NCBI GenBank assembly: GCA_000830275.1
Contig: CP010424.1
Coordinates: forward strand, 1 to 32,000
Direction of reading: 5' to 3'
Length of the DNA stretch: 32,000 nt
Origin: an archaeon GW2011_AR10
GTDB lineage: Archaea; Iainarchaeota; Iainarchaeia; Iainarchaeales; GW2011-AR10
The notes beneath the pieces were generated by a model that did not search any database, was not told the DNA's origin, and saw only the letters and a list, made by a program, of their open reading frames with translations. The position numbers were made by a program, and so were the translations under genes. Below, piece after piece: positions 632-23,645 of the stretch (positions within the stretch are counted from its first letter, which is position 1; the number at the start of each line of letters is the position of its first letter).

Positions 632-3553
632 TTGAGTTACAATAAAATAATAGCGAATGGAAAAATAATCCTAGTTATTTTATTTATTTTATTTTTTATC
701 AGTTTTTCTTTTGCTTTGCCAATAACCGTTACGATTGACCCTCTAAATGTAGTTCCTGAGGCTGATGAAACAAATAATTCCAAAAATTTGAGCCCAAATG
801 TTGTGGAAACGGGGGGCATCAATATTCTTTATGTTCCTGTAGACTGGGCTTATTATGGTGACTCATTTGAGCGTGTTTTTGTTCCTCTGGTAAAAGATCA
901 AAATTCCTTTATGTTTGCAACATATCCTTTTTCTGGAGATAATTTTAGGTCAAGAATAAGTATGCGGAATTTGGATTTGGGTCTTCGAGAAAATCAGAAG
1001 TTATCGCCTATTGAAATTTTAGTTATTTTGAAGAGATTAAATAGGGAATACTTATTGGCTGGCTCTAATTATGATAAAATAGTTGGAGTAGTTCCTGGTT
1101 TTTGGTTTTCTTTTCATTACATTGGCTCTGAAGGCGTTACCAGTTTTTTATTTCCAAACGTTGCCTTGGTTGATGCTGCAACGACTATCTCAACATCTCA
1201 TGAAGTAGGGCATACTTATGGTTTGTGTGATGAATACAATTTTCTTACGTGGAATATACAACATAAATGGTTTTTATGTCCTAATGCGTTCCCATCTAAT
1301 TGTGAACAGGATTTATTTCGCTCGGACGCCTATTGTCCAGGAAGCATAGATACAACTGGTTATCGGGTTGAGTTGGCAGCTGAAAGAGTTCCTTTTGTTC
1401 GCAAATTTTCTTTACAATATTTTGATGAAGCTGAAGCTGATAGGGATGACCAAATACAGCACTCATCTGCTGAATGCACTGAAATAACAGAGATTAATGG
1501 CCAATTTGTGTTTGAGTGCACTTATTATTACCATAATTTCATGGGTAGAGCTGGGGAAACCTATAACTGGGTTAGTGATCAAACCTACTCTCATTTGCTT
1601 TCAACTCTTTCTGATGAGTTTTCCAAGAAAGCAGCGGATTTGAAGGATCTTTCTCCGTCAAATGTTGTTTTTGTAAGCGGTTTGGTTGACTTGCAAAATA
1701 ATGTGGAATTAGATGATTTTTATATTTTGCAGGGAGAGCCATCTGAAAATATTGTTTTGGGGGATTATTCTTTAAAACTTCTGGATTCTTCTGATAACAT
1801 TTTGAGTGATACCCCTTTTTCAGTTTCATTTACTTTACTTTCTAACCCCCCTGTTGATTTGAATACTGCTTTTTTTGGTTTGGCTGTTCCTTGGGTTGAA
1901 GGAACTAAAAAGATTGCTATTGATGTTAATGGTTTAAGGAAAGCCGAGCGCCTTGTTTCTTTGAATGCTCCGGTTGTTTCTGGGGTTTCTGTTGGAAGAG
2001 GAGTTGTTGTGAGTGGTTTGAGTACTATTGAGTGGGATGCTTTTGATGTTGATAGTGATTCCCTAAGCTTTGTGTTGCAGTATTCTGATGATGGTGGCGC
2101 TTCGTGGAAGCCATTGGCGATTGATGTTCGAGGAAATTCTTTTGTGTGGAACGCGGATTTTGTTGATCCTGGGGAGAATTTTGGGGTTAGGGTGATTGCT
2201 ACTGATGGTGTGCTTACTGGTGAGGGTGTTAGTAATGTTTTTACTGTTCGCGCGCCTGATATTGGTGTTTCTACCAGTGAATGGGATTTGGGTGAGTTTG
2301 ATGTTTTTGGTGATGGTGTTTCGCAGGATTTCTTTATTACTAATGAGGGTAACGCTGATTTGGTTGTGAGTTCAATTGTTGTTTCGGATTCTTTGTTTGT
2401 GGTTTCCGGCATTTCTTTGCCTTTAACGCTTTCTCCTGGTGTTTCCCAGAATTTCATTGTTTCGCTTCCTTCTTTTTTTGGTGGAAAGGAGAAGGTTGTG
2501 TTGGGGGAAATTGACGAGAACATTGTGGTTGTTTCTAATGATCCGAATGAGTTAATGAAGGTAATTGATGTTGTTGGTGAATTAGTGCAAATTACTCCTT
2601 TTCCGAGCGTTGAGTTGGTTGCTCCGTTTGAAGCAAAGCTGAATGAGCCTTTCACTGTTGTTGCAACTGTAAAGAATGGTGAGGGCACTTTGAGGGATGC
2701 GAGTGCAGCGCTAGAGCTTCCTGTTGGTTTGGTTTCTTCTAGTCCTTTGGTTGTTGATTTGAATGCTGTTGGTGCTGGAAAGGATTTGAATGTTTTTTGG
2801 AGTGTGGTTGCTTCTCAAAACGGCTTGCATGATGTGAGAGTTAATGTTTCTGGTGGAAACTTTGCTCGTGTTTCTTCTGAGTTTTTTGTTTCTGTTACGA
2901 ATGTGCAGTTGTCTTCTGTTGAGTTGCCTCCTGGCTTATCTTCTGGTGAACCAATTGATGTAAGCGTGCAGGTGCGGAACTTGAATCCTGGTGTTAGTTA
3001 TTCTGAGCCTGTTGTTTTTGTTAAATTATTTTTTCCTGATGGTTCTTCTAATGAGGTTAGCAAAACTATTTCGTTGCTTGGTGCTAACAAAACTGAATCG
3101 TTGCAATTCTTTTTGGGTTCTTCGTTGTATAAGGGCAACCATGCTGTTGAGGTTGCGGTTTTGAGGGATTCTGGTGTTTTGCTGGATTCTGAGTTAGTGT
3201 TTTTTGAGTTTGATGGGAATGGCTCTGTTGATTTATCTCCTACTCAGATTCTTTTTAATTCCAGTGATTTGGTTGTTGGGAGAAAAGTTTTTTTTGATTC
3301 TGGTGTAAAAAATTCTGGTTCTCATGGTTCGGGTTTGTTTAATGTCAAGTGGTTTGTGGATGGAATTCAAGAAGGTTATGGTAGTCATTTAGGGGTTGGT
3401 GCTGATACAACTGTTTTGAATGGCAACTCCCAGTTCTGGTGGGTAGCGCAACCTGGCACGCATACTATAAAGTTTGTTGTTGATGCTAACAATCGTGTGG
3501 CTGAATCCAACGAGGAAAACAATGAGGTTTCTGTTGTTGTTATGGTTCCTTAA
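632..3553 (+). CDS. Large secreted surface protein: metzincin-like zinc protease module (HEVGHTYGLCD) + Asp-box + Ig-like/CARDB domains
   Basis: 973-aa ORF with a TTG start and an N-terminal hydrophobic anchor (IILVILFILFFISFSFA). It has an HExxHxxGxxD motif at nt 1199-1231 and an Asp-box SDDGGASW at nt 2084-2107. The C-terminal domains are CARDB-like (NSGSHGSGLFNVKWFVDG...HTIKFVVDANNRVAESNEENNE). Confidence 0.75.
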   Translation: MSYNKIIANGKIILVILFILFFISFSFALPITVTIDPLNVVPEADETNNSKNLSPNVVETGGINILYVPVDWAYYGDSFERVFVPLVKDQNSFMFATYPFSGDNFRSRISMRNLDLGLRENQKLSPIEILVILKRLNREYLLAGSNYDKIVGVVPGFWFSFHYIGSEGVTSFLFPNVALVDAATTISTSHEVGHTYGLCDEYNFLTWNIQHKWFLCPNAFPSNCEQDLFRSDAYCPGSIDTTGYRVELAAERVPFVRKFSLQYFDEAEADRDDQIQHSSAECTEITEINGQFVFECTYYYHNFMGRAGETYNWVSDQTYSHLLSTLSDEFSKKAADLKDLSPSNVVFVSGLVDLQNNVELDDFYILQGEPSENIVLGDYSLKLLDSSDNILSDTPFSVSFTLLSNPPVDLNTAFFGLAVPWVEGTKKIAIDVNGLRKAERLVSLNAPVVSGVSVGRGVVVSGLSTIEWDAFDVDSDSLSFVLQYSDDGGASWKPLAIDVRGNSFVWNADFVDPGENFGVRVIATDGVLTGEGVSNVFTVRAPDIGVSTSEWDLGEFDVFGDGVSQDFFITNEGNADLVVSSIVVSDSLFVVSGISLPLTLSPGVSQNFIVSLPSFFGGKEKVVLGEIDENIVVVSNDPNELMKVIDVVGELVQITPFPSVELVAPFEAKLNEPFTVVATVKNGEGTLRDASAALELPVGLVSSSPLVVDLNAVGAGKDLNVFWSVVASQNGLHDVRVNVSGGNFARVSSEFFVSVTNVQLSSVELPPGLSSGEPIDVSVQVRNLNPGVSYSEPVVFVKLFFPDGSSNEVSKTISLLGANKTESLQFFLGSSLYKGNHAVEVAVLRDSGVLLDSELVFFEFDGNGSVDLSPTQILFNSSDLVVGRKVFFDSGVKNSGSHGSGLFNVKWFVDGIQEGYGSHLGVGADTTVLNGNSQFWWVAQPGTHTIKFVVDANNRVAESNEENNEVSVVVMVP
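3007..3553 (+). repeat. 547-nt direct repeat, copy A (3' end of the surface-protein gene)
   Basis: It aligns colinearly without indels to 9615-10161. Both copies end exactly at a TAA stop. Runs of about 70 and 100 nt of perfect identity are interrupted by mismatch clusters. I count 21 amino-acid substitutions over about 181 aligned residues. Confidence 0.9.
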
Positions 3554-3595
3554 TTTTTAATGGAGCAGGCTTTTTGATTCTCTTAAGCGGAAAAA

Positions 3596-3624: not shown

Positions 3625-4086
3625 TTATTGGACTTTTTTCAGTGCTTCTTTATAGAGTTCAATGCTTATTCTGAACCCGTTTTTGACTAGTTCGTTTAAT
3701 AGTTTTGAAAACTCTTTTTTGGTTATGAGGTTTTTTTCTCTGGCCAAAACAAGTAAGCCTAGTGTTCCAATGGGTTTTAAGCCAAAGGATTTGGCTGCAA
3801 TTCTGGCTTTTCTGTCATCCAAGAGCACTTTGCTTGTTTTCAGTTGCAGTGCCAATAGAATGGCTGCTGTTTCGCCTTTGCCCAAGGAAATATCTTTTTT
3901 TAGAAAAAATTTTTTCACTTCAATGAACGCTGAAGCCTTGATTTCGTTTCCTGCAGTTTCTTTTACTGAAACCTCAAAGAAAACCTGTTCCGGCATAACA
4001 ATTTTAGTGAAAAGTTTTTCAAGCAAGTCAAGCCGTTCAAGCTTAATGAAAAAAATGAGTGGAGAAGCATTTGAAACAACAATCAT
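3625..4086 (-). CDS. PIN-like nuclease toxin, DUF3368/COG2405 type
   Basis: 153 aa. The pattern VVSNASPLIFFIKLERLDLLEKLF...GKGETAAILLA...VLLDDRKARIAAKSFGLKPIGTLGLL is typical of DUF3368 PIN-like proteins. It overlaps the upstream antitoxin gene by 4 nt. Confidence 0.75.
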   Translation of the reverse strand: MIVVSNASPLIFFIKLERLDLLEKLFTKIVMPEQVFFEVSVKETAGNEIKASAFIEVKKFFLKKDISLGKGETAAILLALQLKTSKVLLDDRKARIAAKSFGLKPIGTLGLLVLAREKNLITKKEFSKLLNELVKNGFRISIELYKEALKKVQ

Positions 4087-4403
4087 TTGAATTCCTTTAA
4101 GTTTTCAAGGTCTTCCATGAACTGTTCTTCAGAATAGTTGAGGTAAGCGTCATACTTTTTCGTTAAGTCAATCATTTCCCACAGGTTTTTCCCTGCAATT
4201 TCAGCAGCTTTTCCAAAGCTTACTTTACCTTCTTTGTACAGTTTAAAAGCATGCTCTGTTTTAAGCTCCTCCAAGCTCATACGAATCATTTTTTTCAGAA
4301 GAGCAGAGCGGTCTAGGTCAAGCTCTCTTGCAAGGCTCTCAATTTCCTCAGTTTCCTTTCTTGAAATTCGGGTTGAAACAACAGCTTCCTGCATAAAAAC
4401 CAT
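4083..4403 (-). CDS. UPF0175-family antitoxin
   Basis: 106 aa. KLYKEGKVSFGKAAEIAGKNLWEMIDLTKKYDAYLNYSEEQFMEDL matches the UPF0175 signature. It has an ATGA overlap with the PIN gene. Confidence 0.7.
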   Translation of the reverse strand: MVFMQEAVVSTRISRKETEEIESLARELDLDRSALLKKMIRMSLEELKTEHAFKLYKEGKVSFGKAAEIAGKNLWEMIDLTKKYDAYLNYSEEQFMEDLENLKEFK

Positions 4404-4462
4404 TTCTTGTATACAATAATTTCAACTGTATACAAAACTCTTTTTAAATGCAGTGGTCAACG

Positions 4463-4485
4463 ACAATCAACTTTTTGGTTGATTT
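4463..4485 (-). terminator. Hairpin motif ACAATCAAC-T5-GGTTGATTT downstream of the channel-like gene
   Basis: The 7-bp arms AATCAAC/GTTGATT are perfect, with a T-rich loop. The element lies 21 nt beyond the stop at 4506. It is a second copy of the 3596-3620 motif. Confidence 0.5.
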
Positions 4486-4505
4486 GTGTTTGTGAGGTGA
4501 TATTT

Positions 4506-5378
4506 TTAACTGACTTTTGTGGAAATTGACTTCTCTGCAGATATTCTTCTGCTGATTTTTTCGCATTCCGTTCTGATTAACTCGATGTCTTTAACCGCAT
4601 TTTCTGGTTTAGGTTCTGAGAGTCGTTTTTCTATTAATTTGGTTATAGTTTGTGAGTAGGCTGTGATATTGTTCAGGTTTTCCTTTGAGTAGTAGTTCAG
4701 CCAGGGCTGACTTGACCGTTCAAATCGTTTTATTCCTTTTGAAATCTGGAGAAGTGTTATTTTCAGGGAGTGAAGCAGTGCGCTCAGGACTTCTTCATCA
4801 AATTTTTTGTCCAGAAATGAAACCATGTAATTATGGTATAAAAACAGCGAACAGGCGCTCATCTTAGAAGAAATGATTTTCAAGTAGTTTTCAGAAGTCT
4901 TATTTTTAATGTGCTGAGCAATCTCTTTTTTTACTTCCAAAATATTACCGGGTTCAAGAGCTTTTTTTGATAATTTGATGAAACCTGCTCTCTGTTCAGC
5001 CCAACTATTCCTATACTCCCTGAGCTTCTGTCTATACTGGCCTTCATACATTTTTTCCGTCATTTTGCTGCTTTTGGCTCCAACAAGTTTTGATAGGAAC
5101 ATCCCAAACAACACGAGCCCTGCCAGAACCTCAAAGGTAATGAGCAGCTTTGAAAACCTGTTTACTGAATAATCCCCTATACAGGAACGGGTTATCGTAC
5201 ATAAGCTGAAATAGAATGATTCTCCTAGAGAAATAGCTGTTCCAGTCTCATTAATTACCCCGTTTTCAGGGGAAATAGAAGAAATACCGAAAAACAAGAG
5301 GGAAAAAGAGAGATAAGAGATAAATAGGAGTGTAAGAAACTGGTTTACTGAAAAAGTAACCATATATTCCCAGCGCAT
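4506..5378 (-). CDS. 2-TM ion-channel-like membrane protein (K-channel pore fold with degenerate filter) + about 190-aa cytoplasmic helical domain
   Basis: 290 aa. The layout is TM1 (FLTLLFISYLSFSLLFFGI), a pore-helix-like SLGESFYFSLCTIT, then RSCIGDY in place of TVGYGD, then TM2 (LLITFEVLAGLVLFGMFLSKLV). The remainder is charged and helical. Confidence 0.55.
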   Translation of the reverse strand: MRWEYMVTFSVNQFLTLLFISYLSFSLLFFGISSISPENGVINETGTAISLGESFYFSLCTITRSCIGDYSVNRFSKLLITFEVLAGLVLFGMFLSKLVGAKSSKMTEKMYEGQYRQKLREYRNSWAEQRAGFIKLSKKALEPGNILEVKKEIAQHIKNKTSENYLKIISSKMSACSLFLYHNYMVSFLDKKFDEEVLSALLHSLKITLLQISKGIKRFERSSQPWLNYYSKENLNNITAYSQTITKLIEKRLSEPKPENAVKDIELIRTECEKISRRISAEKSISTKVS

Positions 5379-5628
5379 GTTAGAATAAAAACAACTTACT
5401 ATTTAACCTTTTTTTTGTGCAAATTCAGGCTTTTTTGGTTAATTCCAGTGGCAGCAACTGCACGCTTCTTCAAATTTAGGCAGAGTATCATTACGGAGCA
5501 AAGAAATCCCTTATTCCCATTTAAAGCAAAAAACGCCTTTTGTTGTGAGACAAATGTCTCAACAACTATTGTCGTAACTGCCAATGCTTTTTGATTTTTT
5601 TTGGTTGTTTTGCTATTATCATAAAGTT

Positions 5629-5636
5629 TTTATATT
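5629..5636 (+). promoter_or_regulatory. TATA-like box upstream of the KaiC-like gene
   Basis: TTTATATT is centred about 38 nt upstream of the ATG at 5670. Confidence 0.3.
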
Positions 5637-5669
5637 AGACTTCCTTTATTGTATTGGTGTTTTTCTTTG

Positions 5670-6440
5670 ATGGATAGGGTTAAAACCGGCATTGAGGGCT
5701 TGGATAAGGCTTTGAATGGCGGCATTCCTTACAGGAACGTTGTTTTGGTTTCCGGTGGCGCTGGAACAGGTAAGAGCACTCTTTGCCTGCAGTACTTGGT
5801 TAATGGTGCCAAGCTTTATGGTGAAAAGGGCCTTTACATTTCCACTGAGCAGAGCCGCGAGGAGCTTTTGAAGGCTGCTGAGGGCTTTGGGTGGGATTTG
5901 GAGGAGCTTGAGCGGCAAAAGCTTTTGAGGATTGCTTACTTTGACGTTGTTGGAACAGATCATTTCCTTGAAAAAATTTACAAGCAGTACACTGACTTCA
6001 ATCCTAGGCGGGTTGTTTTGGATTCCTTGACCACTTTCACTGATTCTCTGCTTGTTTCCAGTGCAAGGGATGACACTGCCTTCTCCATGGTGCAGGTCGC
6101 TGAAACAGTTTCACCAATCCCTAAAACCGAAAAAATCGTCGCAAAAACCCTATTATACCAGCTAATGAAAAAACTTAGGCTGTTTGATGCGACGATTATA
6201 CTGACGTCGGAGTTGCTGGAAGAATCCAAAGGATTAAGTGCTGATGAAATAAGTGAATTCATTTGTGATGGGGTAATTGAAATGCATTATTTGGGGATAT
6301 CGGGTGCTGATTCAAGAACTTTGAGGGTTAGAAAGATGCGTTATTGCAATCATAACAAAAGTTATATCCCTTATGAGATGACAAGCCAGAAGGGAATTAT
6401 TGTTCATGAAGAAGAATCCATGGATGTTTTAATGAAGTGA
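5670..6440 (+). CDS. KaiC-like/RecA-superfamily ATPase (single domain)
   Basis: Contains GIEGLDKALNGGIPYRNVVLVSGGAGTGKSTL, with Walker A at nt 5754-5780, and the Walker B-like RRVVLDSLT. The ATG at 5670 is preferred over the TTG at 5649 given in the ORF track. Confidence 0.85.
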   Translation: MDRVKTGIEGLDKALNGGIPYRNVVLVSGGAGTGKSTLCLQYLVNGAKLYGEKGLYISTEQSREELLKAAEGFGWDLEELERQKLLRIAYFDVVGTDHFLEKIYKQYTDFNPRRVVLDSLTTFTDSLLVSSARDDTAFSMVQVAETVSPIPKTEKIVAKTLLYQLMKKLRLFDATIILTSELLEESKGLSADEISEFICDGVIEMHYLGISGADSRTLRVRKMRYCNHNKSYIPYEMTSQKGIIVHEEESMDVLMK

Positions 6441-6444
6441 TATA

Positions 6445-7077
6445 ATGTATGGCTTACTTTCCAAATTAATAATAGGCGGAAAACTTAAATTTGAGCCAGG
6501 TAGAATTACTGCATTTAAGGATCCATTTGTTTTGTTGGATTTATATTCTCTTAGAGAAATGACTAATGATGCAGTAGAAGGGGGTATTCATAATATTTCA
6601 AATCTTTATTTTTATGGTTGGGCATACGGATATTATGCAACAAAAAATATTGTAAAATTATTGATGCTTAAAAAATTTGAAGAGAGATATAAAATTTCTA
6701 TGGATATAATAGGGCTGCTTGGTTTTGGAGATTACCAAACATTAAGTTTTAAGCAAGCTGACCATGCAAAATTTAAAGTTTTAAAAGACCCATTTCCACT
6801 ACTTTATTATCCACATGACAAATTTGTATGTCACTATATTCGCGGGATGGAGGCTGGTGGAGGAACACATGTTCATGAAGCTTTAATGGACAATATTGAG
6901 TTTGAATGTGCTGCGATTAATGGTCAATATTGTATCCATGCCAATTTAAGCCAAGAAAATATAGATAAAGCGGATCAAAAGCTTGTTTCTTCGCAGCTAG
7001 ATAGGGCATACATTAAAACTAGGCAAAAAAAGCTGATCGAAGAGGCTGGAGATGATCCTTCGAAATTTGGATTGTAG
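6445..7077 (+). CDS. V4R (4-vinyl-reductase-like) small-molecule-binding domain protein
   Basis: 210 aa, starting 4 nt after the KaiC-like stop. The C-terminal pattern FVCHYIRGMEAGGGTHV...IEFECAAINGQYCIHANL fits the V4R signature C-x3-G...E-x-C-x3-G-x2-C. Confidence 0.55.
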   Translation: MYGLLSKLIIGGKLKFEPGRITAFKDPFVLLDLYSLREMTNDAVEGGIHNISNLYFYGWAYGYYATKNIVKLLMLKKFEERYKISMDIIGLLGFGDYQTLSFKQADHAKFKVLKDPFPLLYYPHDKFVCHYIRGMEAGGGTHVHEALMDNIEFECAAINGQYCIHANLSQENIDKADQKLVSSQLDRAYIKTRQKKLIEEAGDDPSKFGL

Positions 7078-7115
7078 TTTTATTATATCGCTACTATTTT
7101 GGGAGGTTTAATTTT

Positions 7116-8036
7116 TTGGAGAGGTTTTTTTCAGACTTGGCAAAGAAAAGTTTTTTTTTAAATTTAATAGTTTTGGGTAGACCTTGGAATGGCATTATAA
7201 TTGGCTTATTTTCCATACTTGGTTTCATTTTTTTAGGAGGCAACGATTTATTAACTATTTTAGTTCTATTTTTTTGCTTTTTTCTTCAATATTTTGCTGG
7301 TACAACCTTCAATGATTTGTATGATTTTTATTCTGACAAAATAAATATGCCTTATAGGCCTTTAGAGTCTGGTGTAATAACCAGTAATGAAGCAAAAATT
7401 CTTGCTATTACTTTATATGTTATTTCTCTGACCTTTTCTTGGCTTTTTTCATTTTATATTTTTTTAGGGGTATTGGCTTTTTTCATTTTGAGTTTGCTTT
7501 ATTCTATAATTCCTTTTAGACTTGTGAGTAGGGGTTTTCTAGGAAATTTAACTTTAGCCACAGTTACTATCTTTATTCCCACTATGACTGGTGCAATCGT
7601 AGCGTCTCAAAGTATTTTTTTACCTTTTGAATTTGTTCTATATGTTTTATATTTTACTTTATTTTTTGCATTTTTCAGCATATTAAAAGATTTTAAAGAT
7701 GTAACAGGTGATTCTAAGTCCGGCAAAAAAACTTTTGTGGTTGTACATGGCATAGATTTAAGTGGTAAAATAATGATTTTTGGCACGGTTTTATTTTTTT
7801 TATTATCTTTATTTTATTTGCTTGAGTTAGTACTTTTGGATTATGTTGTTCTATTGGTTTCTTTGTTTTTTTTGGTGGGTTTATTAATTTTTGAGTTGAA
7901 AGTTTTTGATAAGAGAAATTCTGCAGATAATTTTTATTTACTTTTTTCGAGGACTAGAATATTAATTTTTGTATATGTCTTGCTGGTAATCATTTTGGTA
8001 TATTCGAGCTTTTCCATTGCCCTTACTTTGCCCTGA
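7116..8036 (+). CDS. UbiA-family prenyltransferase (DGGGP-synthase-like)
   Basis: 306 aa, polytopic. It has NDLYDFYSD (nt 7311-7337), then YRPLESG, and a second Asp-rich motif KDFKDVTGDSKSGKKT. The TTG start is preceded by GGGAGGT at 7101-7107. Confidence 0.85.
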   Translation: MERFFSDLAKKSFFLNLIVLGRPWNGIIIGLFSILGFIFLGGNDLLTILVLFFCFFLQYFAGTTFNDLYDFYSDKINMPYRPLESGVITSNEAKILAITLYVISLTFSWLFSFYIFLGVLAFFILSLLYSIIPFRLVSRGFLGNLTLATVTIFIPTMTGAIVASQSIFLPFEFVLYVLYFTLFFAFFSILKDFKDVTGDSKSGKKTFVVVHGIDLSGKIMIFGTVLFFLLSLFYLLELVLLDYVVLLVSLFFLVGLLIFELKVFDKRNSADNFYLLFSRTRILIFVYVLLVIILVYSSFSIALTLP

Positions 8037-8051
8037 AGTTAGTTCACCTTA

Positions 8052-9140
8052 ATGTTTATATTTAGAAATTTAGTTATTCTAGTAGTGGTCATTGTGCCTA
8101 AGAAAAATTTAGAAAGCCTAGATATTGGATATGATATAGTAGTAATTGGTGCAGGGGCGGCTGGTTGTTTTTTGGCAAAAAATATTTCTTCAAATTATAA
8201 GGTGCTTGTTGTAGATTCTAGGTCTTTGCCTAGACATAAGGCATGTAGTGGCATTGTAGTCAGACAGGGGAAGGAACTTTTAGAGCCATTTAGACCGCCT
8301 GAAAGCATTTTTTTAAAGCCTAAAGAGATTCATATTGTCTATTCTGATTGGACACATAAATTAGAAAGGGAGATACAGAAGGGGTTCTGGAATACTGACA
8401 GAGAGAAGCTTGATAAGTGGCTTTATGAACTTGCTTTGAAAAAAGAAAATGTTGATATCATAGACAATGCAAAATTAATCGATTTCAATTATGCTGAAGA
8501 TAAAAAACATATAGTGGTTGTTTTAGAATCAAATGGTGGTGTAAAAAATATTATAAGTAATTATTTAGTTGGATGTGATGGTGCTCTTTCTACAGTGCGA
8601 CAAGTGTTAGGAGTAAAGCCGCCTAAAAGATATGTTGCTATTCAAGAGTTAATAAAGGCTAAGGGCGTTAATAAGGCGTATTTCATTTTTGACGAGGAAA
8701 TAACTGATTGGTATGCTTGGGTAATCCCAAAAGGCGAGGTCATTGATGTTGGTGCGGCTCTAGATCCATTTAAAGCAAGGGAAAAATTCGCTCAGTTTAA
8801 AGAAAAGGTAAAACAAAAGTTTAAAATTTCGGGAAAAGGCTTTTTTGATTCGGCTATGTTAACTCGACCACAATCTGTAAAAGATTTAGTGTTGGGTGAA
8901 AAAAGAGTTTTACTTGCTGGTGAAGCTGCCGGTCTAATAAGCCCTAGCAGTGGTGAAGGGATAAGCTTTGCATTAAGAAGCGCTAAATTTGCTGCAAATG
9001 CTTTTAATAAAAACTTTAAAGATGCATTATCTGAATATAAAAAAGAGGCTAAACCATTAGTTGAAAGACTAAATAATAAATTTTTGAAATCTACTATAAT
9101 AAGTAATAAACAGAAAAGAATTAATCTGATGAGAGAATAG
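8052..9140 (+). CDS. FAD-dependent geranylgeranyl-reductase-family oxidoreductase
   Basis: Contains the GxGxxG motif YDIVVIGAGAAGCFLA, plus GCDGALSTVRQ and LLAGEAAGLISPSSGEGISFALRSA. The start may be internal (GTG near 8094). Confidence 0.8.
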   Translation: MFIFRNLVILVVVIVPKKNLESLDIGYDIVVIGAGAAGCFLAKNISSNYKVLVVDSRSLPRHKACSGIVVRQGKELLEPFRPPESIFLKPKEIHIVYSDWTHKLEREIQKGFWNTDREKLDKWLYELALKKENVDIIDNAKLIDFNYAEDKKHIVVVLESNGGVKNIISNYLVGCDGALSTVRQVLGVKPPKRYVAIQELIKAKGVNKAYFIFDEEITDWYAWVIPKGEVIDVGAALDPFKAREKFAQFKEKVKQKFKISGKGFFDSAMLTRPQSVKDLVLGEKRVLLAGEAAGLISPSSGEGISFALRSAKFAANAFNKNFKDALSEYKKEAKPLVERLNNKFLKSTIISNKQKRINLMRE

Positions 9141-9177: not shown

Positions 9178-9462
9178 TTAGTATTCTTTTCTATAATTTT
9201 CGGCCAATTGGTTGTTTTTTGTCACTATAATGCTCATGTTTCCTTTGTATTCTCTCATTAAGTACATGTGTTTTCCCAAGCCAAATTCAACTACTTTTTT
9301 TGGAAGCCTGTTTTGTATTGCCCAGAGTTTTCTAAAAGTACTTGGGTAGGTTATTTCTGCAATGTAATCTCCTAAAATCACTTTATCGTTTAGTGATGGG
9401 GCGCACTTTATTCCAAACATAGTTTCTTTTGCTCCATATGCTTTCAGTGTTTCTCCAAACAT
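9178..9462 (-). CDS. Hypothetical protein
   Basis: 94-aa ORF, AT-rich like its neighbours, convergent with the reductase gene. I recognise no motif in it. Confidence 0.35.
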   Translation of the reverse strand: MFGETLKAYGAKETMFGIKCAPSLNDKVILGDYIAEITYPSTFRKLWAIQNRLPKKVVEFGLGKHMYLMREYKGNMSIIVTKNNQLAENYRKEY

Positions 9463-9489: not shown

Positions 9490-10161
9490 GAAACATTCAA
9501 TCCAAATTTTTTTCCGTTCACGTATCCTGTTGTGGCAGATATAGATGCTGATGGATATAATGAGATTATTGCTGGCTTTAATTCAGGTTTTGTTTATGCT
9601 TTTAATGGTAATGGGCCTGTTGTTTTTGTTAAATTGTTTTTTCCTGATGGTTCTTCTAATGAGGTTAGCAAAACTATTTCGTTGCTTGGTGCTAACAAAA
9701 CTGAATCGTTATTGTTTTCTTTGGGTTCTTCGTTGTATAAGGGCAACCATGCTGTTGAGGTTGCGGTTTTGAGGGATTCTGGTGTTTTGCTGGATTCTGA
9801 GTTAGTGTTTTTTGAGTTTGATGGTGGAGGAACTGTTGATTTATCTCCTACTCAGATTCTTTATGATTCTGGTGATTTGGTTGTTGGGAGAAAAGTTTTT
9901 TTTGATTCTGGTGTAAAGAATTCTGGTTCTCATGGTTCTGGTTTGTTTAATGTTAATTGGTTTGTAGATGGAGTGCAGGAAGGTTATGGTAGTCATCTAG
10001 GGGTTGGCGCTGATACAACTGTTTTGAATGGCAACTCTCAGTTCTCGTGGGTAGCGCAACCTGGCGCGCACACGATTTCTTTTGAAGTGGATGCTGATAA
10101 TCACGTGGTTGAATCCAACGAGCAAAACAACTCTGTTTCTGTTCAAGTAAATGTTTCTTAA
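9490..10161 (+). pseudogene. 5'-truncated surface-protein paralog (partial FG-GAP repeat + CARDB domains)
   Basis: The frame is open from the stop at 9487-9489 and starts mid-repeat (PFTYPVVADIDADGYNEIIAGFNSGFVYAFNGNG, an FG-GAP-like motif). There is no ATG, no signal peptide and no SD. The only candidate start is the GTG at 9532. Confidence 0.65.
9615..10161 (+). repeat. 547-nt direct repeat, copy B
   Basis: See copy A (3007-3553). It has the same length and also ends at a stop codon. Confidence 0.9.
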
Positions 10162-10854
10162 TTAGTTTTTTTTCTTTTGGGTTGCAAAGAACTGTTCTGG
10201 TGTGATTGTGCTGCCCGCGTGGCCGATTTGGATGCCTGAATTCACCACTATTTTTAGGCCCTCTTTTTTTGCGAGCTTGCAGAAAACAAGGTCCTCTCCA
10301 AGGTCTTCTCCTGTTTCAGGGTCAACAACCTGAAACGCTTTGTTTAAGCCATATTTTTCGGTTACCTTTTTTAGGGCAGAAAATTTCATGAGCAGGAAGC
10401 CAAAACCTGCAGCGTCAACTTCAAAAACAGCGTTGAAGGGAACCTCGCTCGGCGTAACAAAACCGTCCTTTGTTTGCTTGTAGCAAACAGGCACAATTGG
10501 GGGGCGCTTTGTAACATAAAAGCCTGACACCAAATCAGCCTTGGTTTTTTTCTGCGTCAAAAAAAGCTTTGCAATGTCCTCAACAGTGAAAACCGAGTCA
10601 GAGTCAACCCAAAGCAAAAAATCAACAGGCTCTTTTTTGTTCCTCTCCAGGACGTCTTCAGCGATTTTTCTGCGTGCAATCTGGAGGTAGGTTCCGCGCA
10701 CGCTGGAGAAACCAAATTTTTCAAAGAGCTTGAATGAACTGCTTAGAGCAACAATGAATGAAGTGAAACTGGCAACTGGAACTGACTCATACAGTGGAGT
10801 GCAGTAAACAACGTGCTTTGCCAGCTTTTCAACTTTTTCAGCTTTCTCAGCCAT
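10162..10854 (-). CDS. GT-A fold glycosyltransferase (family-2-like)
   Basis: 230 aa. Contains the DxD-type motif LLWVDSDSVF, plus AAGFGFLLM and GEDLVFCKLAKKEGLKIVVNSGIQIGH. Its stop codon (10162-10164) directly abuts the stop of the + strand fragment (10159-10161). Confidence 0.7.
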   Translation of the reverse strand: MAEKAEKVEKLAKHVVYCTPLYESVPVASFTSFIVALSSSFKLFEKFGFSSVRGTYLQIARRKIAEDVLERNKKEPVDFLLWVDSDSVFTVEDIAKLFLTQKKTKADLVSGFYVTKRPPIVPVCYKQTKDGFVTPSEVPFNAVFEVDAAGFGFLLMKFSALKKVTEKYGLNKAFQVVDPETGEDLGEDLVFCKLAKKEGLKIVVNSGIQIGHAGSTITPEQFFATQKKKN

Positions 10855-11918: not shown

Positions 11919-12305
11919 TTATGCAGTTACTTTTATTTCATTCAGTCTCTTTGGCTTGAGCTTCACAAGCGGCAGTATGAGGATTTCTTTTGTCACGTTT
12001 GGAACAATGTTTTTTCCTTTTTTTTGCAGTTCAACTATGTGGACTTTTTCCAATAGCTCCAAATCTCTTAAAACCGCACTAAGCTGTCTGCCCGTTAGCT
12101 CGCTTAACTTTGTAGCATTTTTTGGTTTTTTGTTCTGAATCAGTCTAATCAACTCAAGTCTTTTCTTTGTGAAAACCTGTGTCATTTCGTCGTCTGACAG
12201 GCTGAGCAAAACACCCCTCCCAGGGTAATTTCCGGGATTTTCGAATACCCTGTTAAGATAGGCTTTTACTGCATTCCATCTTTCATCAGTCATTTTATAC
12301 GCCAT
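11919..12305 (-). CDS. Winged-HTH DNA-binding protein (antitoxin-like, HVO_A0114/TumA-like)
   Basis: 128 aa. FTKKRLELIRLIQNKKPKNATKLSELTGRQLSAVLRDLELLEKVHIVELQKKGKNIVP is a wHTH pattern. It starts 4 nt downstream of a 109-aa partner gene. Confidence 0.5.
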   Translation of the reverse strand: MAYKMTDERWNAVKAYLNRVFENPGNYPGRGVLLSLSDDEMTQVFTKKRLELIRLIQNKKPKNATKLSELTGRQLSAVLRDLELLEKVHIVELQKKGKNIVPNVTKEILILPLVKLKPKRLNEIKVTA

Positions 12306-12309
12306 TTTT

Positions 12310-12639
12310 TCACCCCATTTTCATTCTATCCAAATAATACTTTTTATATCTCTCAAAATTATCTTTTATCTGGTCTAAATAAAAATTGAAAATGTCATTT
12401 AAATTCTTTCCCATCATTGGAATGGGAATTGGCTCCGGTGTAATCCAGTATCTTTGTTCATGCAAAAATCCATGTGCAGTGTCAACCCTGTAAACTTCAT
12501 AAAAAATTTCTTCAATTTTTGTCCTGTAGTTCAAGGCAAACCCTTCCACTTTATTGCTTTCAATCTTGAGTTTTACATCAAGCAAATCTGTTGGAGTTAA
12601 TGGTATTGAAAACTTTTTCCATTTGACCAAGATAACCAC
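12310..12639 (-). CDS. Small protein, possible toxin partner (TumE/DUF6516-like?)
   Basis: 109 aa with a His-containing core YRVDTAHGFLHEQRYW. It has a two-gene TA-like arrangement with the wHTH gene. The family assignment is tentative. Confidence 0.35.
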   Translation of the reverse strand: MVILVKWKKFSIPLTPTDLLDVKLKIESNKVEGFALNYRTKIEEIFYEVYRVDTAHGFLHEQRYWITPEPIPIPMMGKNLNDIFNFYLDQIKDNFERYKKYYLDRMKMG

Positions 12640-20161: not shown

Positions 20162-20336
20162 AACATTTCAAGCATCCTTTGGCCCTTAGAGCTTTATTAG
20201 GGCGATAAAAACTTATCCTCTGCAAGAATTTTAAAAGCATGTTTTTTTGCTTAATTCTTAGTTAATAGGGGTCATTAGCAGAACCATTAAATATTCCCTA
20301 AACCTTATGTTTGGTATTGAGTGGAATGGTGCTTAC

Positions 20337-23348: not shown

Positions 23349-23645
23349 ATGCAACGTAGAGGTGCCATCCAAGCAGGGCTGCAAAATCTCAAGCCAGAAA
23401 AGGAAAAGCAGCTTAAAAAATTTATCAAAAACAGCCCGGTTGTAAATTATGCGCCGAGACTTATTGGAAAATTCGATTTGCTAGTTTCAATCAAGTCAAA
23501 GGATTTGCAGGATTTTTACGGGTTTGTGGACGAGTTCAGGACAAATTTTCCCGGAATAATTCATTCATTTGACTCAATGCTTGTTGAGGAGCAAATAAAG
23601 GTTTCCACTAACCAGTACACGGAGATACTAAAGAAGCAGGCTTAA
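23349..23645 (+). CDS. Lrp/AsnC ligand-binding (RAM) domain protein lacking an HTH, possibly a remnant
   Basis: NSPVVNYAPRLIGKFDLLVSIKSKDLQDFYGFVDEFRTNFPGIIHSFDSMLVEEQIKV resembles the AsnC C-terminal domain. No HTH is seen upstream, and the start is uncertain. Confidence 0.35.
   Translation: MQRRGAIQAGLQNLKPEKEKQLKKFIKNSPVVNYAPRLIGKFDLLVSIKSKDLQDFYGFVDEFRTNFPGIIHSFDSMLVEEQIKVSTNQYTEILKKQA

What the first reader, a model, noticed from the sequence alone, without database searches (positions are those of the whole stretch)
5670..9140. Tight four-gene cassette: KaiC-like ATPase, V4R sensor domain, UbiA prenyltransferase, geranylgeranyl-reductase-like flavoenzyme
Four same-strand genes are separated by only 4, 38 and 15 nt, so co-transcription is likely. 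The cassette pairs a KaiC/RecA-type signalling ATPase (Walker A at 5754-5780) with a V4R protein; V4R domains are thought to bind small hydrophobic ligands. These sit directly upstream of the two enzymes that would attach and then saturate polyprenyl chains: a DGGGP-synthase-like UbiA protein with NDxxDxxxD, and a GGR-like FAD enzyme.

I do not know of a described system coupling a KaiC-like ATPase plus V4R protein to isoprenoid-lipid enzymes. One hypothesis is a ligand-sensing ATPase switch controlling membrane-lipid or prenyl-quinone modification. The alternative is that a laterally acquired lipid module simply landed next to a KaiC/V4R regulatory pair. The cassette lies in an AT-rich block inside a repeat-bracketed island, which adds to its accessory character.
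Basis: partly seen in the sequence, partly recalled or inferred. Interest (0 to 1): 0.75.

Follow-up and report, generated by a model that had tools for sequence, protein, structure and literature searches.

The report
Sensor–ATPase pair in archaeal lipid genes
A small ATPase and a hydrophobic-ligand sensor protein sit side by side inside the membrane-lipid gene cluster of many tiny DPANN archaea, which makes them the first concrete candidates for a controller or chaperone of archaeal lipid synthesis.

Summary
Four same-strand genes at 5670-9140, with gaps of 4, 38 and 15 nt, encode a single-domain KaiC-like ATPase, a 210-aa protein, a UbiA prenyltransferase and a geranylgeranyl-reductase-like flavoenzyme.

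Its homologues do hit V4R. Its AlphaFold model matches the whole MopR/PoxR/DmpR sensor domain (TM 0.73-0.77), and it has the same Cys/Glu/Cys/Cys zinc-site spacing as XylR.

The window is archaeon GW2011_AR10 (Diapherotrites). The cassette is chromosomal and conserved, not an accessory island. I compared 41 non-redundant loci from Iainarchaeota, Aenigmatarchaeota, Micrarchaeota and unclassified archaea.
- KaiC lies directly upstream of the V4R-like gene in 34 of 39 informative loci.
- A UbiA gene lies within 3 kb in 27 of 32.
- GGPP synthase, the GGR-like enzyme and once GGGP synthase recur in shuffled order and orientation.
- Searches started from UbiA or the flavoenzyme recover the pair.
- Partnered KaiCs share a C-terminal VLMK-type tail.

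Best reading: a ligand-gated ATPase module tied to isoprenoid ether-lipid synthesis. The linkage is well supported. The mechanism (regulator or substrate chaperone) is inferred. I rate it a new variant of a known kind.

The parts
5623..5637 (+). Candidate archaeal BRE/TATA element (AAAGTTTTTATATTA), about 35 nt upstream of the KaiC ATG. It would be the likely promoter of the cassette.
   Evidence: Read directly from the sequence. This is inference only; no archaeal promoter tool or transcript data were available.
5670..6440 (+). Single-domain KaiC-like (RecA-superfamily) ATPase of 256 aa, AJF59521.1. It belongs to the subfamily that is always paired with the V4R-like protein.
   Evidence: PF06745 E 3.6e-54. 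KaiC CI domain in PDB at about 1e-47 and PH0284 at 1.6e-28. Walker A, E60, Walker B D118 and RKMR are conserved in 14 partners.
5754..5777 (+). Walker A P-loop GGAGTGKS.
   Evidence: Invariant G29/G32/K35 in alignment A4.
6426..6437 (+). C-terminal VLMK tail, a signature of V4R-partnered KaiCs.
   Evidence: All 47 partnered KaiCs end in a hydrophobic-L/M-M/L-K/R tail (VLMK 25 times). Of the 24 KaiC copies not directly upstream of a V4R-like gene, most lack it; the four in V4R-like/c14/KaiC arrangements carry a related -LLK/-ILK end.
6445..7077 (+). Stand-alone V4R-type sensor protein of 210 aa, AJF59522.1, publicly annotated 'hypothetical'. It is equivalent to the complete effector-binding A domain of XylR/DmpR/MopR.
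   Evidence: No Pfam hit itself. Seven of 30 homologues hit PF02830. AF2 pLDDT 93.1. Foldseek 5kbh_A E 3.9e-8, TM 0.73-0.77 over about 195-200 columns, then MJ1460 V4R and Bet3.
6829..6933 (+). Predicted zinc site: C129 (6829-6831), E152 (6898-6900), C155 (6907-6909), C163 (6931-6933).
   Evidence: The spacing +23/+3/+8 is identical to XylR C149/E172/C175/C183, the proven Zn ligands in PoxR/MopR/DmpR. E152/C155/C163 are invariant, and C129 is Cys or Asp, in 20 diverse members.
7078..7106 (+). V4R-UbiA spacer with a TATA-like TTTTATTATAT (7078-7088) and a Shine-Dalgarno-like GGAGG (7102-7106) 9 nt before the TTG start.
   Evidence: Read directly from the sequence. Its function is inferred. It allows either read-through translation or an internal promoter.
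7116..8036 (+). UbiA-superfamily membrane prenyltransferase of 306 aa, AJF59523.1, DGGGP-synthase/chlorophyll-synthase-like. Asp-rich motifs lie at 7311-7337 and 7689-7712.
   Evidence: PF01040 E 2.5e-32. NCBIfam best hits are PRK12884, ChlG and DGGGPS, all below cut-offs. PDB: chlorophyll synthase 2.9e-14, MjDGGGPS 2e-12. Motifs.
8052..9140 (+). Short (about 347-362 aa) geranylgeranyl-reductase-like FAD enzyme, AJF59524.1. GxGxxG at 8148-8165, conserved Cys (KACSG) at 8238-8252, YAWVIP at 8712-8729. The true start may be GTG 8085 or 8094.
   Evidence: TIGR02032 148.4 bits against a 158.8 cut-off, and NF008519 217 bits. Family profile versus PDB: TaGGR 3oz2 is top at 2.8e-21. AF2 pLDDT 93.3. 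The seven best Foldseek hits are archaeal GGRs, TM 0.76-0.78.
9178..9462 (-). 94-aa C-terminal remnant of a wHTH-containing family (my cluster 'c4') that recurs beside the cassette in other genomes.
   Evidence: Clustering. Alignment and HMM. Weak wHTH hints in Pfam.
3004..3555 (+). Left copy of the 552-nt direct repeat, the 3' end of the 973-aa CARDB protein gene.
   Evidence: CARDB domain.
9612..10163 (+). Right copy of the 552-nt direct repeat (about 90% identical), lying in a 209-aa truncated CARDB paralogue.
   Evidence: CARDB domain.

Best explanation
**What it is.** The cassette is the GW2011_AR10 version of a conserved DPANN gene neighbourhood. A two-protein module sits inside the genes that make the isoprenoid ether-lipid core. 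The module is a single-domain KaiC-like ATPase with a subfamily-specific C-terminal VLMK tail, plus a stand-alone zinc-containing V4R sensor protein of the XylR/DmpR/MopR A-domain type. The lipid genes around it are GGPP synthase (IdsA), a DGGGP-synthase-like UbiA prenyltransferase, a GGR-like reductase, and in one relative GGGP synthase.

**Proposed mechanism.**
1. The V4R protein binds a hydrophobic isoprenoid species, such as GGPP, (D)GGGP or unsaturated archaeol.
2. Binding changes how the V4R protein interacts with the KaiC-like hexamer, switching its ATPase or autokinase state. This parallels bacterial NtrC-type regulators, where the same sensor fold gates an ATPase in cis.
3. The ATPase state then tunes chain attachment by UbiA and saturation by the reductase. 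The route could be direct contact with the enzymes or a still unidentified output.

**Shown.** The domain and fold identities, the intact catalytic and zinc motifs, the tight KaiC-V4R gene coupling, and the recurrent linkage to isoprenoid enzymes across deep divergence.

**Inferred.** The ligand, the physical KaiC-V4R complex, the direction of control, and that the UbiA enzyme is the organism's DGGGP synthase.
For: **KaiC-V4R pairing.**
- KaiC lies within 120 nt upstream, on the same strand, in 34 of 39 informative non-redundant loci. V4R-like identity in these loci falls to about 30%.
- Typical gaps are 5-20 nt, and 4 nt in the window.
- The partner-specific VLMK-type tail is found only on paired KaiCs.

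**Link to isoprenoid enzymes.**
- UbiA lies within 3 kb in 27 of 32 loci, on either strand.
- The GGR-like enzyme is present in 12 of 24 and IdsA/GGPP synthase in 10 of 21. IdsA was confirmed by PF00348 at 6.8e-61 and by NF040698/NF041003.
- Only one long locus has none of these.

**Reverse tests.**
- Three of four long contigs found with UbiA homologues carry UbiA, V4R-like, KaiC and a polyprenyl synthase.
- Contigs found with the flavoenzyme give KaiC-385aa-PcrB(GGGPS)-FAD (L062) and KaiC/V4R-like/FAD sets in MAGs labelled Nitrososphaeria and Freyarchaeota.

**Sensor identity.** AF2 model and Foldseek matches. Zinc-ligand spacing equals that of XylR.

**ATPase competence.** Walker A, Walker B and the catalytic Glu are conserved.

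**Reductase identity.** The top sequence-profile and structural matches are archaeal GGRs, and the Cys and YxWx(F/I)PK motifs align with 3oz2.

**Chromosomal, vertically kept context.** Synteny with L001. The literature places GGPS and DGGGPS in the DPANN ancestor (PMC12892359).
Against: - No experiment or transcript data bear on the cassette, and no complex prediction could be run.
- The window protein itself fails PF02830.
- The UbiA enzyme scores far below every curated DGGGPS or ChlG equivalog cut-off. I could not check whether AR10 has another UbiA or GGR elsewhere.
- No KaiC-V4R fusion (Rosetta stone) occurs among the 150 best family representatives.
- No output domain (DNA-binding, kinase substrate) was identified with confidence.
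- The GGR-like gene is absent from roughly half of the informative loci, so it is a looser member.
- Part of the conservation could be synteny by descent within DPANN.
- The non-DPANN taxonomic labels of L064 and L065 come from MAG bins and may be wrong.
Confidence: 0.5

Rival explanations
1. **Substrate chaperone or hand-over machine rather than regulator.** The V4R protein carries the greasy intermediate (GGPP, GGGP or DGGGP) from the soluble synthase to the membrane-embedded UbiA enzyme and on to the reductase. The KaiC-like hexamer supplies ATP-driven loading and release.
For: - V4R relatives hold hydrophobic ligands in a buried pocket. Bet3 structures with covalently bound palmitate are among the fold hits.
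- BchJ, the founding V4R protein, is now thought to be a pathway chaperone rather than a reductase (PMC7242693).
- BchJ's pathway ends with a UbiA-family synthase (BchG) and a GGR (BchP), whose genes lie two genes apart in photosynthesis gene clusters (PMC6052148).
- The tight, probably stoichiometric KaiC-V4R coupling, and positions between IdsA and UbiA in many loci.
- No DNA-binding output lies in the core module.
Against: - The closest structural matches are signalling sensor domains that gate ATPases, not carriers.
- KaiC-like ATPases characterised so far act as switches or scaffolds. This statement rests on my own knowledge, and Makarova et al. 2017 could not be read here.
- Archaeal lipid pathways have been reconstituted in E. 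coli without such factors (cited in PMC12892359).
Confidence: 0.28
2. **Prenylated aromatic pathway (quinone-, tocopherol- or chlorophyll-like), not membrane lipid.** The V4R protein binds an aromatic acceptor, as MopR binds phenols. UbiA prenylates it with GGPP, and the reductase saturates the side chain as ChlP does.
For: - Most UbiA enzymes prenylate aromatic acceptors.
- The best PDB sequence hit is chlorophyll a synthase (2.9e-14), slightly ahead of MjDGGGPS (2e-12). ChlG scores 91 bits against 82 for DGGGPS.
- The public annotation is '4-hydroxybenzoate octaprenyltransferase'.
- The sensor fold's best matches bind phenols.
Against: - The flavoenzyme orthologue sits directly beside GGGP synthase (PcrB), a lipid-specific enzyme, in L062.
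- A UbiA orthologue lies in an archaeal mevalonate-pathway cluster (L059).
- No aromatic-ring or tetrapyrrole biosynthesis genes appear in the window or the loci surveyed.
- JGI names the orthologue P0079 as DGGGPS.
- DPANN fermenters have little known use for quinones. This last point rests on my own knowledge.
Confidence: 0.1
3. **Adjacency without shared function.** A KaiC/V4R pair and lipid genes happen to be neighbours, either through an old arrangement kept by descent or because a mobile lipid module landed there.
For: - The segment 3556-9611 is bracketed by 552-nt direct repeats and carries a toxin-antitoxin pair.
- V4R, UbiA and FAD have GC3 0.23-0.24, against 0.46 for KaiC and 0.39-0.53 for housekeeping genes.
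- Most loci come from one superphylum.
Against: - Linkage survives inversions of UbiA, relocation of the reductase to either side, and replacement of flanking genes. It holds across 41 non-redundant loci with V4R-like identity down to about 30%.
- It is recovered when starting from UbiA or from the flavoenzyme.
- One complete chromosome has two KaiC/V4R-like pairs, each beside a different candidate isoprenoid enzyme (L015, L058).
- KaiC also has a higher GC3 than its three neighbours in the relatives L003, L004 and L020.
Confidence: 0.07
4. **DNA-repair paralogue.** The KaiC-like protein is a RadA/RadC-type DNA-repair paralogue unrelated to lipids.
For: Weak hits to Rad51, RadA, RadB and RecA models, and to SSO2452.
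Against: - KaiC models score far higher (184 bits against about 21 for Rad51).
- No repair genes are linked.
- The pairing with V4R and lipid genes is constant.
Confidence: 0.02

Closest known systems
Archaeal single-domain KaiC-like ATPases (arCOG01171-type; PH0284, PH0186, ArlH/FlaH), proposed as signal-transduction hubs (Makarova, Galperin & Koonin 2017, mBio)
   Same: Same PF06745 fold and length of about 230-260 aa, with intact Walker A/B and catalytic Glu. Encoded next to a putative input-domain protein, as that model proposes.
   Different: - It is a distinct subfamily marked by a C-terminal VLMK-type tail.
- It is always paired with a V4R protein and embedded in isoprenoid-lipid genes.
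- It reaches no NCBIfam KaiC or ArlH equivalog cut-off.
- The 2017 paper is not in the searchable library, so I cannot exclude that it lists V4R among KaiC-linked domains.
- No searchable paper links KaiC, V4R and lipid genes.
Effector-binding A domain (XylR_N + V4R) of sigma-54 activators XylR, DmpR, MopR and PoxR
   Same: Same fold over the whole 200 residues (TM 0.73-0.77). Same zinc-ligand set and spacing. In both cases the sensor is coupled to an oligomeric P-loop ATPase.
   Different: - Here the sensor is a separate polypeptide.
- The ATPase is RecA/KaiC-type, not AAA+.
- There is no sigma-54 interaction domain or HTH, and archaea lack sigma-54.
- Sequence identity is only 13-16%.
- The likely ligand is an isoprenoid, not a phenol.
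BchJ / BchG / BchP of bacteriochlorophyll biosynthesis
   Same: The same triad of protein families: V4R protein, UbiA-family prenyltransferase using GGPP, and FAD-dependent geranylgeranyl reductase. BchJ is suspected to be a chaperone for a hydrophobic intermediate. bchG and bchP lie two genes apart.
   Different: - No tetrapyrrole genes are present here.
- A KaiC-like ATPase is added.
- The acceptor is probably glycerol phosphate-based.
- The organisms are non-phototrophic DPANN archaea.
Canonical archaeal ether-lipid enzymes: GGPPS, GGGPS (PcrB), DGGGPS (UbiA), GGR
   Same: UbiA has both Asp-rich motifs and is closest to the DGGGPS/ChlG clade. The flavoenzyme is closest in sequence profile and structure to Thermoplasma and Sulfolobus GGR. 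IdsA and PcrB are neighbours in relatives.
   Different: - Both enzymes are divergent and fall below the curated cut-offs.
- The reductase is about 50-100 residues shorter than characterised GGRs (347-362 aa against 397-453 aa).
- In well-studied archaea these genes are generally scattered and have no KaiC/V4R partners. This last point rests on my own knowledge.

Membership tests
KaiC family (PF06745), single-domain archaeal type | Pfam KaiC model above its gathering score | tested here: met
   184 bits against a 26.6 cut-off, E 3.6e-54.
KaiC family (PF06745), single-domain archaeal type | Walker A, catalytic Glu and Walker B Asp intact | tested here: met
   GGAGTGKS at 5754-5777. E60 and D118 are invariant in 14 partners.
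Bona fide circadian KaiC | Duplicated CI+CII domains (about 500 aa), reaching the KaiC equivalog score | tested here: not met
   One domain of 256 aa. NF006799 130.7 bits against 408, and TIGR02655 98 against 546. No kaiA or kaiB gene appears among the window ORFs I annotated.
Archaellum ArlH/FlaH | NCBIfam ArlH equivalog score; archaellum gene context | tested here: not met
   66.6 bits against 215. No archaellum genes are adjacent.
V4R domain (PF02830 / COG1719) | Match to the Pfam V4R model | tested here: not met
   No hit for the window protein at E<=10. Seven of 30 homologues hit, the best at 2.7e-6. L064 and L065 relatives hit weakly at 0.02 and 0.12.
V4R domain (PF02830 / COG1719) | V4R/Bet3 alpha-beta fold | tested here: met
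   AF2 pLDDT 93.1, pTM 0.90. MopR 5kbh_A E 3.9e-8, TM 0.73/0.75. MJ1460 2osd E 7.4e-5. Bet3 about 1e-3.
XylR/DmpR/MopR-type sensor (A) domain | Cys-Glu-Cys-Cys zinc site with conserved spacing | tested here: met
   C129/E152/C155/C163 have the same +23/+3/+8 spacing as XylR C149/E172/C175/C183. Metal binding itself was not tested.
XylR/DmpR/MopR-type sigma-54 activators (NtrC family) | Sensor fused to an AAA+ sigma-54-interaction domain and a C-terminal HTH | tested here: not met
   Stand-alone 210-aa protein. The long relatives are V4R-V4R tandems only.
UbiA prenyltransferase superfamily (PF01040) | Pfam model above cut-off and two Asp-rich motifs (NDxxDxxxD, DxxDxxxD) | tested here: met
   112.6 bits against 34.2. 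Motifs at aa 66-74 and 192-199.
DGGGP synthase (geranylgeranylglycerol-phosphate geranylgeranyltransferase) | NCBIfam equivalog score (NF009521, NF009522, NF009512) | tested here: not met
   69.1 against 296, 82.5 against 353, and 31.9 against 278. Closest solved DGGGPS is 6m31 at E 2e-12.
DGGGP synthase (geranylgeranylglycerol-phosphate geranylgeranyltransferase) | Catalyses GGGP + GGPP -> DGGGP; is the only such enzyme in the genome | not testable with these tools
Context support comes from L059, L060, L061 and L062.
Chlorophyll/bacteriochlorophyll synthase (ChlG/BchG) | Equivalog score and tetrapyrrole-pathway context | tested here: not met
   NF005742 91.2 against 313, and TIGR01476 80.2 against 212.3. 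No bch or chl genes in the window.
Geranylgeranyl reductase family (TIGR02032) | Subfamily model cut-off | tested here: not met
   148.4 bits against 158.8, a narrow miss.
Geranylgeranyl reductase family (TIGR02032) | GGR fold; FAD GxGxxG; conserved Cys; YxWxFPK motif | tested here: met
   Foldseek ranks 1-7 are TaGGR and SaGGR, TM 0.76-0.78. The profile's top hit is 3oz2 at 2.8e-21, with PCGG and YsWvIPKge aligned to RCGEG and YIWVFPKGE. GAGAAG, KACSG and YAWVIP are in the window protein. The motif has Ile where GGRs have Phe.
Flavin-dependent halogenases (considered because of the hits) | Best structural and sequence match; WxWxIP motif | tested here: not met
   Halogenases rank below the GGRs with lower TM (0.65-0.69). 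The motif is YxWxIP, not WxWxIP. The motif definition is from my own knowledge.

The most novel reading that the evidence does not exclude
The KaiC-like ATPase and its V4R partner form a dedicated lipid-homeostasis device of archaea. In this reading a zinc-containing sensor reads the pool of isoprenoid intermediates or membrane unsaturation, and an ATP-driven hexamer directly controls or feeds the membrane prenyltransferase and the reductase. That would make it the first identified post-translational regulator or chaperone of archaeal ether-lipid synthesis. It may be evolutionarily related to the BchJ-BchG-BchP arrangement of phototrophs and to the lipid-binding Bet3/TRAPP proteins of eukaryotes.
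Probability: 0.3. Interest if true: 0.85.

Novelty: new variant of a known kind. Interest (0 to 1): 0.66.

Why it matters
How archaea regulate membrane-lipid synthesis, and how greasy intermediates pass from soluble synthases to membrane enzymes, is to my knowledge essentially unknown. No dedicated regulator has been described.

This analysis identifies a compact, conserved, two-gene candidate. Its parts have well-understood bacterial counterparts (ligand-gated ATPases), so the hypotheses can be tested directly.
- Ligand binding by the V4R protein.
- ATPase gating of the KaiC-like protein.
- The effect of the pair on a reconstituted lipid pathway in E. coli.

It gives a function-level context to two AR10 genes publicly annotated as 'hypothetical'. 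It also suggests that the '4-hydroxybenzoate octaprenyltransferase' label of the neighbouring UbiA gene is probably wrong.

It bears on how far DPANN archaea make their own lipids.

It adds a concrete case to the proposal that KaiC-like ATPases are archaeal signalling hubs.

Tried and rejected
1. **Direct Pfam and NCBIfam hits for the 210-aa protein.** None, even at E<=10. A PDB sequence-profile search gave only a chance enoyl-CoA hydratase hit at E 0.62. Identity came from homologues and structure instead.

2. **Reading Makarova et al. 2017.** I wanted to see whether KaiC-V4R is already described, but the paper is not held. Full-text searches for KaiC+V4R and for KaiC+geranylgeranyl+DPANN found nothing relevant.

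3. **Rosetta-stone search.** There are no KaiC-V4R fusions among the 150 best family representatives. The long proteins are tandem V4R-V4R.

4. **The 'c14' family.** These proteins are about 410-436 aa, carry an invariant HGIDDYVD motif, and replace UbiA next to the V4R-like gene in some loci.
   - No Pfam or PDB sequence hit.
   - Its suspected relationship to shorter DDxxD proteins (L064, L065, L058) is not statistically supported (hhalign E 0.21).

5. **The L062 385-aa protein as a tandem V4R.** Not supported (E 0.079).

6. **What NF008519/PRK11445 (best NCBIfam hit of the flavoenzyme) stands for.** No literature was found.

7. **Island hypothesis.** Rejected for the cassette as a whole, although the local repeat and the GC3 drop are real.

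8. **The sigma-70 promoter and terminator scanner.** Not used, because it does not apply to archaea.

Full report
**1. The observation**

The window carries four consecutive + strand ORFs.
- 5649/5670-6440, a KaiC-like protein.
- 6445-7077, a 210-aa protein.
- 7116-8036, a UbiA protein with a TTG start.
- 8052-9140, an FAD enzyme.

ATG 5670 is the likely KaiC start. Homologues align from there, and the public protein of 256 aa matches exactly.

Motifs and signals read from the sequence:
- Walker A GGAGTGKS lies at 5754-5777.
- The UbiA Asp-rich motifs NDLYDFYSD and DFKDVTGD lie at 7311-7337 and 7689-7712.
- A BRE/TATA-like AAAGTTTTTATATTA sits about 35 nt upstream of the KaiC ATG.
- A GGAGG lies 9 nt before the UbiA TTG, and a TATA-like stretch lies in the 38-nt spacer.
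- Co-transcription is therefore plausible, but an internal start cannot be excluded. No transcript data were available.

**2. Domain identities**

- KaiC: PF06745, E 3.6e-54. It has one domain only. Every NCBIfam KaiC or ArlH equivalog is far below its cut-off. The closest solved relatives are the CI domain of KaiC and the single-domain PH0284 and PH0186.
- UbiA: PF01040, E 2.5e-32. The NCBIfam best hits are PRK12884 'prenyltransferase', ChlG and DGGGPS, all well below their cut-offs. In the PDB, chlorophyll a synthase (2.9e-14) and M. jannaschii DGGGPS (2e-12) are nearly tied.
- Flavoenzyme, sequence: TIGR02032 (GGR superfamily) scores 148.4 bits against a cut-off of 158.8, and NF008519 scores 217 bits.
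- Flavoenzyme, profile: a 30-member family profile finds Thermoplasma GGR (3oz2) first at 2.8e-21. The conserved Cys and the YxWx(F/I)PK motif are aligned.
- Flavoenzyme, structure: its AlphaFold model has pLDDT 93.3. Its seven best Foldseek matches are the Thermoplasma and Sulfolobus GGRs (TM 0.76-0.78), ahead of the flavin halogenases.

**3. The 210-aa protein**

That is literally met, because there is no Pfam or NCBIfam hit even at E<=10. Four lines of evidence overturn it.
- The protein has 32 close homologues, all from Diapherotrites/DPANN MAGs. Seven of 30 hit PF02830, the best at 2.7e-6.
- An AlphaFold model built on that alignment is confident (pLDDT 93.1, pTM 0.90).
- The model matches the entire effector-binding domains of MopR, PoxR and DmpR (E about 1e-7 to 4e-8, TM 0.73-0.77 over about 195-200 columns). 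Next come the archaeal V4R protein MJ1460, Bet3/TRAPP subunits and H-NOX.
- The four zinc ligands proven in PoxR, MopR and DmpR are XylR C149/E172/C175/C183 (bioRxiv 10.1101/2021.01.17.427014). They have exact counterparts with identical spacing: C129/E152/C155/C163.

E152, C155 and C163 are invariant across 20 diverse members, and position 129 is Cys or Asp. The protein is therefore a stand-alone XylR_N+V4R-type sensor.

An exhaustive profile search shows a small subfamily. Only 14 clusters at 50% identity score below 1e-30. The subfamily grades into the common stand-alone V4R proteins of about 185 aa and into tandem V4R-V4R proteins.

**4. Provenance and the 'island' question**

The four proteins are AJF59521.1 to AJF59524.1 (QT03_C0001G0006 to 0009) of archaeon GW2011_AR10, on a 1.24-Mb contig. 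Their public names are 'hypothetical', 'hypothetical', '4-hydroxybenzoate octaprenyltransferase' and 'oxidoreductase'. The same arrangement was assembled independently in two other metagenomes.

- A 552-nt direct repeat of about 90% identity lies at 3004-3555 and 9612-10163. It is the duplicated 3' end of a CARDB-domain gene.
- The repeat brackets a toxin-antitoxin pair (DUF3368/UPF0175), an ion-channel-like gene, the cassette and a 94-aa remnant.
- Genes 2-4 have GC3 0.23-0.24, against 0.46 for KaiC and 0.39-0.53 for the housekeeping genes.

The cassette is nevertheless not accessory.
- The rest of the window holds housekeeping genes: beta-CASP RNase, NMD3, pantoate kinase, PPS, fibrillarin, Nop5 and a class II aaRS.
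- These are syntenic with a 522-kb Iainarchaeum contig, where the cassette lies between beta-CASP and NMD3.
- In the relatives L003, L004 and L020, KaiC also has a higher GC3 than the other three genes.

The local picture is a rearrangement plus duplication. It is not acquisition of the cassette.

**5. Recurrence**

A GTDB scan gave 16 loci and a metagenome scan 39. The loci carrying organism names are labelled Iainarchaeum, Aenigmatarchaeota and Micrarchaeota or are unclassified; one short contig is labelled Methanosarcinales.

I scored all loci with HMMs built here. After collapsing V4R-like proteins that are at least 90% identical, 41 groups remain.

| Neighbour of the V4R-like gene | Present / informative loci |
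|---|---|
| KaiC directly upstream, same strand, within 120 nt | 34 / 39 |
| UbiA within 3 kb, either orientation | 27 / 32 |
| GGR-like enzyme within 3 kb | 12 / 24 |
| Polyprenyl synthase within 3 kb | 10 / 21 |

- Three of the five KaiC exceptions (L015, L043, L044) have KaiC on the far side of one intervening gene, c14. In L057 it lies about 420 nt upstream, and the short L036 group shows a second-type FAD gene upstream instead.
- Four of the five loci without UbiA have an uncharacterised protein there instead (my cluster 'c14').
- The polyprenyl synthase was confirmed by PF00348 at 6.8e-61, and it is closest to IdsA/GGPP synthase.
- Only one long locus (L056) has no such neighbour.

The reverse tests agree.
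- Three of four long contigs reached through UbiA homologues show UbiA, V4R-like, KaiC and a polyprenyl synthase.
- The fourth places the UbiA orthologue in an archaeal mevalonate-pathway cluster: AcnX, UbiD, type-2 IDI and a 397-aa FAD_binding_3 enzyme.
- Contigs reached through the flavoenzyme give KaiC, a 385-aa protein, PcrB (GGGP synthase) and FAD in L062.
- The same route gives KaiC/V4R-like/FAD sets in MAGs labelled Nitrososphaeria and Freyarchaeota. Those labels depend on binning.

One complete 833-kb chromosome carries two KaiC/V4R-like pairs, one with UbiA and one with c14.

Linkage that survives inversions, reshuffling and replacement of flanks at about 30-50% protein identity argues for shared function.

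**6. Features of the pair**

- The partnered KaiCs keep Walker A, E60, Walker B D118 and an RKMR motif.
- All 47 partnered copies end in a hydrophobic-L/M-M/L-K/R tail, with VLMK in 25 of them.
- Most other KaiC paralogues in the same loci lack the tail. The exceptions are the KaiCs of the V4R/c14/KaiC arrangements, which carry a related -LLK or -ILK end.
- This partner-specific tail is a natural candidate for a docking element. That is inference.
- No KaiC-V4R fusion was found.

**7. Mechanism**

My preferred model is a ligand-gated ATPase.
- The V4R protein binds an isoprenoid intermediate or lipid.
- It thereby sets the ATPase or autokinase state of the KaiC-like hexamer.
- That state modulates chain attachment and saturation.

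The logic copies XylR, DmpR and MopR, where the same sensor fold gates an ATPase in cis. Here the sensor acts in trans and the ATPase is RecA-type.

The main rival is a chaperone or hand-over role.
- It is supported by the BchJ precedent. BchJ is a V4R protein now viewed as a possible pathway chaperone (PMC7242693).
- Its pathway ends with the UbiA-family BchG and the GGR BchP, whose genes lie two genes apart (PMC6052148).
- Lipid-bound Bet3 appears among the fold matches.

A prenylated-aromatic pathway is less likely, given the PcrB, IdsA and mevalonate contexts and the absence of ring-biosynthesis genes. Chance adjacency and a DNA-repair role are unlikely.

How sure I am:
- I put about 0.85 on functional linkage of the pair to isoprenoid-lipid enzymes.
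- I put about 0.5 on the regulatory-switch version specifically.

**8. Comparison and novelty**

Each part belongs to a known superfamily. KaiC-like ATPases have been proposed as archaeal signalling hubs, and V4R domains as hydrophobic-ligand sensors (PMC2253512).

I could not find the following described in the searchable literature. The key 2017 paper could not be read.
- The specific, conserved KaiC+V4R pair.
- Its signature C-terminal tail.
- Its embedding in the GGPPS/UbiA/GGR gene set.

I therefore rate it a new variant of a known kind. It offers the first concrete, testable candidates for control or channelling of archaeal ether-lipid synthesis.

Noticed in passing
L014:6698-7984, L015:6614-7846(-), L017:562-1872(-), L018:6703-7650, L043, L044, L046, L047: An uncharacterised family of about 315-436 aa (my cluster 'c14') sits next to the V4R-like gene exactly where UbiA is missing. 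It has invariant HGIDDYVD and D..DI..DL.NKDY motifs and no Pfam or PDB sequence match. The motifs recall the Asp-rich motifs of isoprenoid enzymes. Shorter DDxxD proteins in L058, L064 and L065 look similar by eye, but hhalign does not support the relationship (E 0.21).
   Followed up: partly
window 9178-9462 (-); L003:4498-5061 and 7567-8229, L004:3907-7871 (five copies), L008:7811-8611, L013:9791-11866, L061:4449-5303, L062:6722-7546, L063:2317-3144 and 4012-4887: A family of about 220-290 aa with an N-terminal winged-helix-like region recurs beside the cassette, and beside the GGR-like gene, in several phyla. The window holds only a 94-aa C-terminal remnant. It might be a transcriptional partner, or simply an expanded family.
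   Followed up: partly
window 5670-9140: There is a sharp codon-composition step inside the cassette. KaiC has GC3 0.46, while V4R, UbiA and FAD have 0.23-0.24. A weaker step of the same sign exists in the relatives L003, L004 and L020. The cause is unknown; gene-specific bias or recombination with a lower-GC relative are both possible.
   Followed up: partly
window 3004-3555 and 9612-10163: A 552-nt direct repeat of about 90% identity. It is the 3' end of the 973-aa CARDB protein gene, duplicated as a 209-aa truncated CARDB ORF. It brackets about 6 kb that includes the cassette, which suggests a recent local rearrangement.
   Followed up: yes
window 3625-4403 (-): A DUF3368 (PIN-like) and UPF0175 gene pair with a 4-nt overlap. 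It is a typical toxin-antitoxin arrangement and lies just upstream of the cassette region.
   Followed up: no
window 20307-22907 (+): An 866-aa subtilase (Peptidase_S8, E 6.5e-47) carries an N-terminal Kunitz/BPTI inhibitor domain (E 1.1e-10). That is an unusual domain for an archaeal protein.
   Followed up: no
window 11919-12639 (-); L062:1522-2230: A DUF7718 + HVO_A0114 gene pair lies in the window about 3 kb from the cassette. The same pair sits directly upstream of the KaiC gene in L062.
   Followed up: no
L001:4584-5144, L005:2010-2570, L011:606-1121, L033:480-998, L008 (several): A second, shorter V4R paralogue of about 186 aa, which does hit PF02830, often lies just upstream of the same KaiC gene. 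In some genomes this gives V4R-KaiC-V4R. None was found in the 32-kb window.
   Followed up: partly
L015 and L058 (both CP070662.1, an 832,879-bp chromosome): One complete small archaeal chromosome carries two separate KaiC/V4R-like pairs. One is beside a DGGGPS-like UbiA. The other is beside the c14 protein, a second-type FAD enzyme and an IdsA fragment. L058 also has two more KaiC paralogues.
   Followed up: partly
L062:2296-6041: The gene order is KaiC, an unassigned 385-aa protein, PcrB (GGGP synthase), and a GGR-like enzyme 50% identical to the window's. The 385-aa protein looks V4R-like by eye, but this is not supported (hhalign E 0.079).
   Followed up: partly
window 23628-24269 (-): A 213-aa protein gives a sub-threshold CTP_transf_1 hit (22.9 bits against a cut-off of 24) and no NCBIfam hit. 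It could be a divergent CDP-archaeol-synthase-like enzyme, which would be a further lipid gene in the neighbourhood.
   Followed up: no
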